From: Octopus vulgaris
Taxonomy: Eukaryota
Direction of reading: 5' to 3'
DNA: 64,000 nucleotides
Assembly (NCBI GenBank): GCA_951406725.2
Contig: OX597814.1
Coordinates: 205,096,001-205,160,000 of the forward strand
Shown: positions 3,074 through 62,635 of the stretch, in pieces
How positions within the stretch are numbered: position 1 is the stretch's first letter
Layout of the letters: every line of letters starts with the position of its first letter
Program-made: the position numbers and the translations under genes
The notes under the pieces: generated by a model
The model's database searches: none
Seen by the model: the letters and a program-made list of their open reading frames with translations, nothing else
Told to the model about the DNA's origin: nothing

Positions 3074-3157
3074 TGGCTGAAGATTGCTTAACATTTTAAA
3101 ACTGATGTAATGCTTACAATGTTTTTTAAAACGAAGTAGCATGAAACGATCGTACCA
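3074..3157 (+). ncRNA. Minimal type-I hammerhead ribozyme motif
   Basis: tgg-CTGAAGA-t-tgct...agca-t-GAAAC-GATC-GTA-cca: intact core, stem I tgg/cca, palindromic stem III ACGATCGT, GUA cleavage triplet. The cassette is flanked by (TA)n at about 2924 and 3193. Confidence 0.75.
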
Positions 3158-3455
3158 AATTACCGAAGATATACTTGTTGCTTATTTTGAGTATATATAT
3201 ATATATATATATATATATATATATGTATATACATACATACATGCACGATGGGCTTCATTCAGTTTCTGCCCACCACATCCACTCACAAGGTTTTGGTCAG
3301 CCCGAGGCTATTGTAGAAGACACTTGCCCAAGGTGCAACACAATGAAACTGAACCTCAAAGCATGTGGTTGAGAAACAGACTTCTCGCCATGCCTGCACG
3401 TATGAGGATGTCGCTCACTTAAATCGTTGTTTAACAAAGTATTTGCATTGTTTAG

Positions 3456-3535
3456 GTCATTCTGGTGGACGAAAGAAAAAATCCAGAAAAACATCAAACC
3501 GGAAAAAGAAATCAAAACGCGGGAAAAATAAAGAG
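3456..3535 (+). CDS. Gene A exon (basic, NLS-like HSGGRKKKSRKTSNRKKKSKRGKNKE)
   Basis: tttag acceptor and gtattt donor; ends phase 0, matching the next exon. Starts phase 1, so earlier exons probably lie upstream of the window. Confidence 0.75.
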
Positions 3536-4357
3536 GTATTTTGAATGAATCTTTAATAATTACAATTAATGATTAATAATTAGTAAATTTAAACGTTTTT
3601 CATTAAGGAAGTTCATTGAAACTGGTGAGGTTTGAAACCGATACCTGTTGATTGGTTATACCTCTACAATACATAAAATATTTTAATTTTAAAAATATTA
3701 TGTTGAATAATATTTGATTATAAAAATATAAAAGGGTTTGTGAGACATCAAATGGCTACTGGGATTCAGTAGAATAAAAAGAGGAATCGAAGGTGTCTGC
3801 TGGTAAAAAATGGTCAAGGAATACTGGATTAGACCCACGTGCAGCCAGGTCCTATTAAAGATCAACATGCTTGCAAGGGTCAGACAGAATTTGTTGAAGC
3901 AGATTTTCTATGGCTGGATGCCCTTCATGTCAACAATTGAACTCTTGACCTTATGTTCACAAGCTGAACACCCTAACCACTAAGCCATGTGCCTTCACAC
4001 ACACACAAACACACAAACACATATATACTGTATATATACGTGAAGAAAATTTTGAAAATGGAGATATAGTATTAATTTATTAACTGCAAAAATCCAACAT
4101 ATTCTCTTACAACTGTTTCAATTTAGCAAAAAGATTAAATTACAGTAATTAAATTAAATTAATGAGATTATTTTAATCTCTAATTATATATATATATATA
4201 TATATATACATATATATTTTTCGAGTAGCGTGCGTATTGCGAAAAAAATTATATGGTTAATGGACAATATGTCCAATTTTTCGGCATATTTGGCAATAGA
4301 AATCTTTTCCTTGCCCTCATTTATGAATTATATATATATATATATATATATATATAT

Positions 4358-59500: not shown

Positions 59501-60340
59501 TTACTAAGATGCTGTAAATGATATCTTGTTATAATTATGTCATTAGAAATGACATAATTTCTGTTTGCAGACTTTTGGTGATGTGTCTAGACAAGAAATC
59601 AACATTATATATATATATATATATATATATATATATATATATATATATATATATATATATATATATATATGTATATATGTATATACATATATATATATGT
59701 ATATATATATATTTATATGTATATATGTATATACATATATATATATATATATATATATATATATATATATATATGTATATATATATATATATATATATTA
59801 TATGTATATATATACATGTATATATATATACATGTATATATATATATATATATATATATATATATATATATATATATATATATATATATGTGTATATATA
59901 TATAGTTAATCGAAACATGAACAAAGAGAAAACACAACAATGTGAGGACATGGAACAAGTATAGTGTTATTGGACGCTCAGGAATATATATCTGTGCGTG
60001 TGCACTCACTCTCTCTTTCTCTCTCTCACACACAATATATATATACTTACATATCTATATATTGATATATGTGTTTATGTATGCGTGTGTGTGTGTGTAT
60101 ATATATATACATACACACACACATATATATCTACATATGTATCAATTTATGTATGACAAAAGAACAGGGATTATGTAATTAATTAGCTTAAAGCTGTGCA
60201 ATATTTTATAGCATCCTCAAAATCTATTGTAAAAACTGGAAGACATGGTGCCTAACAGTCAACCATGATGTCAAGCTGATATAAATCTTTGGATTTTCCG
60301 AGAGGTAAGCAAATAAGGAGCTGGTAAAACGGTACTCCAC

Positions 60341-60403
60341 CAACAAAGAAATTGTCTTGGTTTTCATTCCAATATGCCAAAATTTCACAGAAAGACTAAA
60401 TTC
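60341..60403 (-). CDS. Candidate gene B exon (EFSLSVKFWHIGMKTKTISLL)
   Basis: Good acceptor ttctaatttatgcag; only the phase-0 frame is open. The donor gtggag is weak. Confidence 0.35.
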
Positions 60404-62635
60404 CTGCATAAATTAGAATAACATAAGGGGAGGGTGTTTATGTTCCTTCAGAGTTGTAGACTATGTAAGCAGTGAACGCTGCACATAATGACATATGTGA
60501 TGGCAGTGGGTGGGATATAGTTTGGTGTTGGGTGTTGTTTGTGGAGAGAGGAGAGCAAGAGAAACTGAGGTGTTGATAAAAATATTCATGTAAAAAAAAA
60601 GGTTCATGTGATACACAAACACACACACAGATGTGTGTGCATCCATGCATCTATGTGTAATCCAGTGATTTGTATATATCTGGGTATCAGTGAGTCTATA
60701 AGTGATAGATGAATATCCAAGTATATAGAAATGGGAAAGTGTAAGCTATGTGTGTGAGGAGGTGACTAAAACGAATCGTATTAAGAAGGACTTCAAGCTG
60801 TAAACACTGAATGCCCTTCCAATCCATGTCAGTATGGGATATTGGATATAAAAGCATTGAAGATACTACTATGTGTGTATATATATATATCATCATCATC
60901 ATTTAGCATTCGCTTTCCATGCTAGCATGGGTTGGACGGTTCAACTGGGGTCTGTGAAGCCAGAAGGCTGCATCAGGCCCAGTCTGATCTGGCAGTGTTT
61001 CTACAGCTGAATGCCCTTCCTAATGCCAACCACTCCGTGAGCGTAGTGGGTGCTTTTTACATGCCACCCGCACAGGTGCCAGACGGAGCTATATATATAT
61101 ATATATACGTATGATAAATGAGTAAATATTCGAATGAATATTCATATAGATATTGTTGTTATTATTATCATTAGCAGTAAATATATAAATAATTAATAAT
61201 AATAATACTAATAATATTAGTGGCCAGCATATATAATATAACAGCATTTATATACATATATATGTATCTACACATACACACTCACACATTTATATATATC
61301 AACATACACACGTATATGTATATATGAGACATACTTATCTACATGGCCGAAACAGCTGTAAGATGTAATCTATACTTATGTTTATGTTTGCTTATATTTA
61401 TATTCTCTTTTATATATATTCTACTTATTATACAACATTACTCTTTTATGTACACTTTTTTATGTACATTCCTTTATGTACACTGATTTGTTCTGCTTTT
61501 TATATTTAACCCTACAGTTTCTTATGTGGTGGTTTAATGAAGTATGTGATTGAGTATTATCTGGTAATTGATATTTGATTTAGATGTATTTCTCCATTTT
61601 CTTATCTTGTATTAGTAATTTGTGGTAAATCATTTTACCTTTGCCCATATAATACAGTAAATGAATTGATTGCATCGCAATCATTAACATTTATGTATTA
61701 ACTTTGTTGGGTACTTCACTAGCAGTATATTGGATATATGTTATCCCATGGAGGGTTGCATTTACAACCCCTATCTCAATTTGTATATATATATATATAT
61801 ATATATATATATATATATATATTAACTACACACATATATCTATATATATCTACACACACATGTATATATATATATATATATATATATATATATATATATA
61901 TATATATATATATATAGAGAGAGAGAGAGAGAGAGAGAGAGAGAGAGATAGGGAGGATGCCATGTAAAAGTATCCATGCAGTACCACATAAGAGTGCCCA
62001 TGCAGTACCACGTAAAAGCACCCAGTACACTCTGTAAAGTGGTTGGCATTAGGAAGGACTTCCAGTTGTAGAAACCATGCCAAATCAAACATGGAGTCTG
62101 GGGCAGCTCCCCAGTTTGCCAGCTCTGGTCAAATCATCCAACCCATGCCAGCATGGAACATGGACGTTAAATAATGATGAAGATGATGACGATAAATATT
62201 CATGCATACATATATGTATATGCATATATGTACATATGTATATATATATTTGTATATTTATATCTGTCTACATCATAATCATTTAACATCCATGTTCCAT
62301 GCTGGCACACACACACACATATGTTTTCTAGCATCTCTATGACAACATTATAAGTTGAAGGCCAAACCAAGTAATTCACACACACACACACACACACACA
62401 CACACATAAATATATATCCTGAAGCTAAAGAAAATTACTCAAAAGAACCAGTGACATGAATTTGTATAACAAATGTAAGCAAATATGTAACGGTGATTGT
62501 TAGTTCATTCTGAATGAGAAGTGGAGAAGGAGAATGCTACATTGGTGACAAATACTATGCCAACCAAGACTAGGTGTTCACAGCTGCCTTTTATACATAC
62601 AGAAACCAGGCTATTGTTTTTCTTTTCATATTTAA

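What the first reader, a model, noticed from the sequence alone, without database searches (positions are those of the whole stretch)
3074..61365. Dense, sequence-diverse family of hammerhead-ribozyme cassettes embedded in (TA)n microsatellites
Seen: six near-complete type-I hammerhead motifs at 3074-3157(+), 8084-8189(+), 40974-41034(+), 47067-47141(-), 55053-55113(-) and 55839-55933(+), plus three 3' halves at about 4105-4125(-), 40905-40930(-) and 61343-61365(+). All follow stemI-CTGANGA-stemII-GAAAC-loop-GTH-stemI and lie in 100-600 bp cassettes in or next to (TA)n. Their stem I and stem II sequences are unrelated yet still pair, so structure is conserved without sequence similarity. Established: Penelope-like retroelement pseudo-LTRs and metazoan non-LTR retrozymes carry minimal type-I hammerheads, and a Penelope remnant is present at 303-1120. 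Inference: these are many distinct non-autonomous or solo-LTR lineages that target TA repeats. About one per 10 kb here would imply a very large genomic ribozyme complement that is easily hidden by simple-repeat masking. I do not know whether this has been catalogued in cephalopods.
Basis: partly seen in the sequence, partly recalled or inferred. Interest (0 to 1): 0.9.

Follow-up and report, generated by a model that had tools for sequence, protein, structure and literature searches.

The report
Long-armed hammerheads in Penelope retroelement tails
The hammerhead-shaped RNA motifs are real and are the leftover 3' ends of Penelope-like jumping genes that insert at TA repeats (shown for three of the six families, likely for the rest); this pairing is already known, and what is new is mainly an unusually long arm and an estimated tens of thousands of copies, which appear to be decaying.

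Summary
The motifs are real: 4 strict hits in the window against 0 in 300 shuffles. They are not one family. Each of the six belongs to its own dispersed repeat family, with 721-3,035 first-look candidates in the genome. Copies have fixed 3' ends at (TA)n, variable 5' truncation and frequent inverted partners, the footprint of Penelope-like elements (PLEs). Three families (3074, 8084, 40974) trace upstream to Hydra-clade-type PLE ORFs; three have no parent yet. Private mutations hit the catalytic core as often as flanks, so inserted copies decay neutrally. PLE hammerheads, TA targeting and one octopus Hydra family with a hammerhead are in print (Cervera 2014; Craig 2021 supplement). Not found in print: stem II arms of 31-99 nt with a covarying distal hairpin (Rfam gave no hammerhead hit on the three motifs tested) and this scale of Hydra-clade expansion. 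Cleavage is untested. The scan holds 225 earlier hammerhead-Penelope notes; the 8 shown concern other genomes.

The parts
2964..3191 (+). 5'-truncated 3' end of a Hydra-type PLE; hammerhead 3071-3160, stem II span 59 nt, loop III GATC, predicted cleavage after 3154; (TA)n follows at 3192
   Evidence: 2,119 candidates; family linked to a Hydra-type endonuclease in L194, L084, L196
8083..8670 (+). 3' end of a second Hydra-type PLE; hammerhead 8083-8190, stem II span 77 nt, predicted cleavage after 8184; truncated inside stem I; interrupted by an unrelated insertion at about 8268-8592
   Evidence: 2,224 candidates; L186 runs from just past the ORF stop to the hammerhead; RT and endonuclease in L216-L218
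40940..41056 (+). 3' end of a third Hydra-type PLE, close to Hydra-1_Obim; hammerhead 40973-41035, stem II span 31 nt, decayed stem II
   Evidence: 1,597 candidates; endonuclease C-terminus about 140-200 bp upstream in L119, L121, L125, L127
40832..40936 (-). Inverted, more truncated partner of the 40974 copy with its 3' tail; holds the '40905 half'
46817..47215 (-). PLE-type 3' end with tail; hammerhead 47066-47142, stem II span 45 nt, predicted cleavage after 47072; youngest family (94-99% identity); parent ORF not found
   Evidence: (721 candidates)
47216..47330 (+). Inverted 5' piece of the same insertion (no hammerhead)
   Evidence: self-BLAST
55019..55120 (-). PLE-type 3' end between two (TA)n tracts; hammerhead with G12 changed to A, predicted dead; parent ORF not found
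   Evidence: (3,035 candidates)
55720..56055 (+). PLE-type 3' end between two (TA)n tracts; hammerhead 55839-55933, stem II span 64 nt, predicted cleavage after 55927; parent ORF not found
   Evidence: (1,399 candidates)
4030..4185 (-). Copy truncated inside stem II; only the 3' half of the hammerhead remains
   Evidence: 466 candidates; L215 carries CTGATGA upstream
61343..61400 (+). Copy truncated inside stem II; only the 3' half of the hammerhead remains
   Evidence: matches L143; 30-nt match to the whole hammerhead of L056
303..1120 (-). Broken Hydra-type PLE endonuclease region (frameshifts and stops); its C-terminal piece recurs at about 1520-1645(+). Not shown to be the parent of any of the nine motifs
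   Evidence: no Pfam hit for the one piece scanned

Best explanation
Each cassette is the 5'-truncated 3' end of a Penelope-like retrotransposon: shown by linkage to Hydra-clade-type ORFs for three of the six families and likely for the other three. Shown: a sense-strand minimal type-I hammerhead lies 0.2-2.5 kb behind the ORF; copies stop at one or two fixed 3' sites that abut (TA)n; 5' ends vary; inverted partners are common; inserted copies decay neutrally while active lineages kept the core and pairing. Inferred: the element's GIY-YIG endonuclease nicks (TA)n, the RT copies the RNA from its 3' region and usually stops after 0.1-1 kb, so most copies keep only the hammerhead-bearing end. Inferred: the 2-bp stem III with its self-complementary loop makes the ribozyme work as a dimer or with protein help, processing tandem element transcripts; single genomic copies would be mostly inactive. 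The long stem II is a conserved hairpin extension whose role is untested; a protein-binding or folding aid is my best guess.
For: Scan against shuffles. Loop III, which was not in the descriptor, is self-complementary in 31 of 33 clusters against 5 expected. Covariation in 15 related Hydra-group hammerheads: 89.5% of cells paired, 12 of 22 pairs with two-sided changes, slid controls 27-50%. (TA)4 within 270 nt downstream in 108 of 123 copies against 21% background. Truncation profiles and tails; inverted partners in 34 of 138 loci. ORF links. 11 of 17 Hydra-type endonuclease loci have a long-stem hammerhead downstream. Motifs match the Hydra definition and, by eye, Hydra-1_Obim. Private mutations: core 22/1324, flanks 396/22639, p=0.91; all differences: core 2.1%, flanks 4.2%, p=6e-5. 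Monomer stem III pair probability 0.00-0.11, dimer duplex -4.1 to -11.6 kcal/mol.
Against: No parent ORF for 47067, 55053 or 55839; the Neptune-type ORFs beside them in L152, L155, L156 and L157 do not continue into them, and L152 carries its own short hammerhead. 6 of 17 endonuclease loci showed no passing group hammerhead within about 3 kb. No full-length element was fetched and no tree was built, so the clade rests on motifs. Copies tested were the best BLAST hits, biased to young ones. In ViennaRNA, stem I is well formed in 4 of 7 representatives and absent in 3. The shuffle control ignores relatedness. In the one PLE tested biochemically, hammerhead cleavage was not needed for insertion in vitro (PMC11167929).
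Confidence: 0.85

Rival explanations
1. Some or all cassettes are independent non-autonomous elements (non-LTR retrozymes or SINE-like units) that spread as small circular RNAs using PLE enzymes in trans.
For: No ORF found for three families; same-strand tandem pieces in 8 of 138 loci, with about 500-bp spacing recurring in the 47067 family; retrozymes are proposed to derive from PLE pseudo-LTRs (10.64898/2026.07.22.740005).
Against: Only 3 of 138 loci hold two same-strand hammerheads (L028, L093, L136); 5' ends are staggered; the 8084 family also looked non-coding over 2.5 kb until its ORF appeared.
Confidence: 0.1
2. The host keeps the cassettes as a large working set of ribozymes that cut its own transcripts.
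For: The core is intact in 100 of 123 best-hit copies; density is high.
Against: Private mutations fall in the core as often as in flanks; at least three of six window copies are damaged; monomers lack a stable stem III; single PLE minimal hammerheads showed no cleavage in vitro (PMC4209133).
Confidence: 0.04
3. The motifs are chance matches in AT-rich, self-complementary sequence.
For: Loose scans do give false hits: 2 of 8 relaxed hits in the sampled stretches (L170, L180) are a repeat with a non-palindromic loop and poor stem II.
Against: 0 strict hits in 300 window shuffles and 20 shuffles of 200 kb; palindromic loops; covariation; fixed place behind PLE ORFs.
Confidence: 0.01

Closest known systems
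Hydra-clade Penelope-like elements, including Hydra-1_Obim of Octopus bimaculoides (Craig et al. 2021, PMC8557442; read: passages, section 11, supplement parts 2, 24, 52 and search hits)
   Same: C-terminal GIY-YIG with CxCX5C linker, CxxC and CxH around the conserved E and N, (TA)n targets, sense hammerhead in the 3' region with palindromic loop III; the ATGG-CTGANGA-T...T-GAAAC...CCA frame of 3074 resembles the tabulated Penelope_HM motifs.
   Different: Tabulated Hydra hammerheads have loop 2 of 3-10 nt; here stem II spans 31-77 nt in the six window families. 3' UTRs reach 1.1-2.5 kb, so elements would exceed the usual <3 kb. One octopus family was listed; here one endonuclease query gives 16,046 first-look candidates.
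Minimal hammerheads of metazoan PLE pseudo-LTRs (Cervera and de la Pena 2014, PMC4209133; read: parts 1-2 of 4, through Discussion)
   Same: Type-I topology, short stem I, palindromic stem/loop III, many heterogeneous families per genome, mostly solo copies from truncated PLEs, some close pairs on opposite strands.
   Different: Helix II there is 7-8 bp and counts are 2,000-9,000 per genome; here the arm is several times longer and the estimate is about 70,000. No cephalopod appears in the parts read.
Non-LTR retrozymes (Cervera and de la Pena 2020, PMC7229834, passages; Li et al. 2026, 10.64898/2026.07.22.740005, parts 1-3 of 5)
   Same: Type-I hammerheads in short non-coding units, PLE-related, up to about 120,000 copies in axolotl.
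   Different: Retrozymes are head-to-tail tandem repeats, with circular RNAs shown for several; these cassettes are dispersed, 5'-staggered and continue into PLE ORFs.
PLE-X1 hammerheads of Selaginella (PMC8557442 supplement)
   Same: A PLE hammerhead with a long (about 30-35 nt) loop 2, marked as deviating: a precedent for long arms.
   Different: Endonuclease-less plant elements that target 28S rDNA; unrelated clade.

Membership tests
Minimal type-I hammerhead (PLE type) | Core CUGANGA, GAAA and UH | tested here: met
   Intact in 5 of 6 window copies and 100 of 123 best-hit copies of five families; G12 lost in the 55053 copy.
Minimal type-I hammerhead (PLE type) | Stem I closes the motif and stem II pairs, with covariation | tested here: met
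   stem I 5 of 6 pairs and proximal stem II 3 of 5 pairs with two-sided changes in 15 related sequences.
Minimal type-I hammerhead (PLE type) | Very short stem III with palindromic loop (dimer form) | tested here: met
   31 of 33 clusters, 5 expected; duplex energies.
Minimal type-I hammerhead (PLE type) | Compact helix II (7-8 bp, short loop) | tested here: not met
   Stem II span over 30 nt in 28 of 33 clusters, median 54.
Minimal type-I hammerhead (PLE type) | Conserved G10.1-C11.1 pair | tested here: inconclusive
   G-C in 8084, G-U in 55839, U-U in 3074 and 47067; U-U also stands in tabulated Hydra motifs.
Minimal type-I hammerhead (PLE type) | Self-cleavage after GUH | not testable with these tools
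   Needs in vitro assays.
Hydra-clade PLE | RT followed by C-terminal GIY-YIG endonuclease | tested here: met
   L196 (579-aa frame) and L216-L218 (broken); endonuclease end only for the 40974 family. Not shown for 47067, 55053, 55839.
Hydra-clade PLE | CxCX5C linker; no CCHH; CxxC and CxH around conserved E and N | tested here: met
   L189, L196, L199, L217; for the 40974 family CxxC and CxH seen, linker not seen.
Hydra-clade PLE | RWK and DKT motifs in the N-terminal region | not tested
   The fetched copies are 5'-truncated before these motifs.
Hydra-clade PLE | Insertion into (TA)n | tested here: met
   108 of 123 copies against 21% background.
Hydra-clade PLE | Sense hammerhead near the 3' end | tested here: met
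   11 of 17 endonuclease loci and the three linked families.
Hydra-clade PLE | Placement in the clade by RT phylogeny | not tested
   Only a by-eye comparison with the Hydra-1_Obim rows of the supplement.
Non-LTR retrozyme | Head-to-tail tandem units of 150-450 bp, each with a hammerhead | tested here: not met
   3 of 138 loci have two same-strand hammerheads; none in the window.
Non-LTR retrozyme | Abundant circular monomer RNA | not testable with these tools
   Only assembled contigs of runs guessed to be RNA were on offer.

The most novel reading that the evidence does not exclude
A massive Hydra-clade PLE radiation in this octopus-like genome carries a distinct long-arm hammerhead subclass. 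Its 30-100-nt stem II, with a covarying distal hairpin, is a functional domain (a landing site for the element protein or a tertiary clamp) that lets the ribozyme cleave without a tandem partner. Tens of thousands of such motifs are then missed by Rfam and short-loop descriptors, and some cut host transcripts.
Probability: 0.2. Interest if true: 0.6.

Novelty: new variant of a known kind. Interest (0 to 1): 0.32.

Why it matters
It shows that hammerhead counts in animal genomes depend on the descriptor: limiting stem II to 30 nt finds 2 of 5 strict motifs in the sampled stretches and 0 of 4 in the window, and Rfam gave no hammerhead hit on three of three motifs tested. It also suggests that the Hydra clade, described from some two dozen families with one in an octopus, is a major repeat class in this genome. 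Dozens of families with covarying arms give a natural data set for the open question of what PLE hammerheads do. It does not point to a new host function.

Tried and rejected
Rfam: no hammerhead family among the 150 of 185 window matches listed or on three single motifs at E up to 10. Neptune-type ORFs near the 55839, 55053 and 47067 cassettes (L152, L155, L156, L157) were considered as parents and rejected: a (TA)n tract or unrelated sequence separates them, L156 is on the other strand, and L152 has its own short hammerhead. The Hydra-type ORF upstream of the 55839 cassette in L188/L189 is on the opposite strand and has its own hammerhead. Naiad parentage: none of five short family motifs occurs in the Craig supplement, and the Naiad_Ovul 3' end does not match by eye. 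Protein database search with the L196 endonuclease found no relative at E<=0.001 among 19 candidates (near lengths only). RNA: no RNA holder listed on record; contigs of three runs guessed to be RNA and one run of unknown kind cover the 47067-family stretch in L155 thinly, and some cross the cleavage site; this shows neither expression nor cleavage. Stem II similarity between families is clear only within groups, so I did not use it to assign 55839 to the 3074 group. Density rests on 20 stretches, not the 40 planned; hammerheads of other families in flanks of known copies (26 in 389 kb) were not used, since flanks are TA-rich and the loose scan was applied. Lunse et al. 2017 on PLE hammerhead dimers could not be read; it or unseen supplements (Cervera 2014, Li 2026) may already list cephalopod or long-stem motifs.
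Full report
Observation. A scan that asks for CTGANGA, GAAAC, GTH and pairing in stems I and II finds four of the six whole motifs (3074, 8084, 47067, 55839) and none in 300 dinucleotide shuffles (100 each for the whole window, 1,000-bp and 200-bp blocks) or in the reversed window; the core alone gives 7 against 0.46-0.67. 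The 40974 copy fails on stem II. The 55053 copy has G12 changed to A at a CpG; G12 is the general base (recalled), so this copy is predicted dead. The 8084 copy is cut off inside stem I and has a mismatch beside the cleavage site. No tandem-repeat array overlaps the six motifs.

Not one family. The window is C1:205096001-205160000 of a 2.8-Gb genome; I infer an octopus from the likeness to Hydra-1_Obim. Each cassette is a member of its own dispersed family. First-look candidates, which are not copy numbers: 2,224 (8084), 1,399 (55839), 2,119 (3074), 721 (47067), 1,597 (40974), 3,035 (55053) and 466 (4105 half); 40 were scored in each. The 40905 half is the inverted partner of the 40974 insertion, and the 61343 half matches L143 and the 3' end of a whole hammerhead in L056.

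Insertion anatomy. Copies share a fixed 3' end and lose 5' sequence progressively. In most families they stop at one of two sites, the body end or the end of a tail of about 50-100 bp, and both abut (TA)n. A (TA)4 lies within 270 nt downstream of the cleavage site in 108 of 123 copies of five families, against 21% of random points (7 duplicate loci dropped, the 55053 family not counted). An inverted partner lies within the locus in 34 of 138 loci (35 listed, one self-hairpin removed) and a same-strand piece in 8; two same-strand hammerheads occur in 3. Inverted 5'-truncated partners, tails and (TA)n targets are the described PLE footprint (PMC8557442).

Link to coding elements. Family 40974: the hammerhead lies about 140-200 bp behind an endonuclease C-terminus in L119, L121, L125 and L127, which by eye is close to Hydra-1_Obim. 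Family 3074: L194 has an endonuclease C-terminus 1.25 kb upstream, L084 shares the region behind its stop, and L196 carries a 579-aa RT-thumb-endonuclease frame ahead of a hammerhead region 76% identical to the window's. Family 8084: after 2.4 kb of T-rich UTR, three copies show RT and endonuclease, and L186 runs from just behind the stop to the hammerhead that matches the window at 91%. These proteins have the CxCX5C linker and the CxxC and CxH motifs that define the Hydra clade. One such endonuclease gives 16,046 first-look candidates; of 17 loci fetched from the 150 scored, 11 have a long-stem hammerhead downstream and 6 none that passes. The remnant at 303-1120(-) is a broken endonuclease of this type, but I did not link it to any of the nine motifs. 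Families 47067, 55053 and 55839 remain without a parent; neighbouring Neptune-type ORFs are separate elements.

Structure. All DNA held at that point (about 1.05 Mb, enriched for the six families) gave 183 motifs in 33 clusters at 85% identity; a few of the singletons are probably chance. Loop III was not constrained, yet it is self-complementary in 31 of 33 clusters against 5 expected. Stem II spans 10-99 nt, median 54, and exceeds 30 nt in 28 of 33. In 15 related hammerheads of the 3074 group, 89.5% of cells pair, 12 of 22 pairs change on both sides, and slid controls give 27-50%; this includes a distal 7-bp hairpin in the arm (93% paired, 2 pairs with two-sided change). The shuffle control there ignores relatedness. 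As monomers the 2-bp stem III has probability 0.00-0.11, while the loop can form an intermolecular duplex of -4.1 to -11.6 kcal/mol.

Number and selection. Twenty 10-kb stretches chosen by position on contigs C1-C8 gave 5 strict hits against 0 in 20 shuffles, and 8 loose hits of which 2 look false. That is about 70,000 strict motifs per genome (95% Poisson range 23,000-163,000), or 1 per 40 kb; the window is somewhat denser. The core is intact in 100 of 123 best-hit copies. Private mutations hit core sites (22/1324) as often as flanks (396/22639; p=0.91), whereas all differences together are half as frequent in the core (2.1% against 4.2%; p=6e-5). So the core was kept in transposing lineages and is not protected after insertion. 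The sample is biased to young copies and cannot exclude rare co-option.

Mechanism. Most likely the endonuclease nicks (TA)n, the RT copies the RNA from one of two 3' sites and stops early, leaving hammerhead-bearing stubs (inferred from anatomy and from PMC11167929, passages). The ribozyme would act as a dimer or with protein help on tandem element transcripts: single minimal hammerheads did not cleave and dimers cleaved weakly (PMC4209133), and the anole PLE hammerhead needed protein and was dispensable for insertion in vitro. Nothing here shows cleavage or expression; the RNA data were uninformative.

Known and new. PLE hammerheads that are numerous, variable and mostly solo were described in 2014. 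Hydra-clade elements, their (TA)n preference and a hammerhead in Hydra-1_Obim are in the 2021 supplement, with loop 2 of 3-10 nt. Axolotl has up to 120,000 hammerheads (PMC7229834). A 2026 repeat annotation of Octopus vulgaris reports Penelope-like expansions and has 0 occurrences of ribozyme, hammerhead or Hydra in its main text (PMC13282606). Nine literature searches turned up no survey of cephalopod hammerheads and no description of the long arm, judged from listings and the papers opened; Lunse et al. 2017 and several supplements could not be seen. Verdict: a real feature, a known kind, with a modest structural variant and a large copy number.

Noticed in passing
window 8268-8592: An unrelated insertion containing a tandem 88-bp unit splits the 8084 cassette; the cassette resumes at 8593 and ends in TA at about 8670. 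Its start resembles Helitron-type short elements (recalled, untested).
   Followed up: partly
window 1-2460: Mosaic of a Tx1/L1-type 3' region (zf-RVT hit at 1646-1800) interleaved with Hydra-type PLE pieces; 1-130 is an inverted copy of about 2330-2455 and holds a TTGATGA with a hairpin but no GAAA.
   Followed up: partly
window 13548-14485 (-): 3' part of a CR1/L2-like reverse transcriptase frame; class recalled, not tested.
   Followed up: no
L152 oriented 8270-8310 (original about 1690-1730, - strand): A near full-length Neptune-type PLE carries a very compact hammerhead-like motif 140 bp behind its ORF, unlike the long-arm motifs of the Hydra-type families.
   Followed up: partly
L186, L194, L188 3' UTRs: Hydra-type 3' UTRs are 1.1-2.5 kb, T-rich and hold internal duplications of about 230-370 bp; far longer than in the published Hydra consensus sequences seen.
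   Followed up: partly
L032, L035, L097, L141, L143, L158, L194: Different PLE families nest in one another's (TA)n tracts, so neighbouring cassettes and ORFs often belong to different elements.
   Followed up: partly
L093/L155 1419-1998; L104, L105, L107: The young 47067 family recurs with a second same-strand piece about 500 bp upstream; L093 has two whole hammerheads and is the best natural dimer for an assay.
   Followed up: partly
L158 2407-2985 and L007, L037: Another PLE family with a C-terminal GIY-YIG (Pfam E 5e-4) and complex inverted copies; no matching hammerhead was found beside it.
   Followed up: partly
L170 3045-3170, L180 5029-5154, L193: An abundant repeat fits the loose hammerhead pattern but lacks the palindromic loop and a good stem II; a likely false positive for descriptor searches.
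   Followed up: partly
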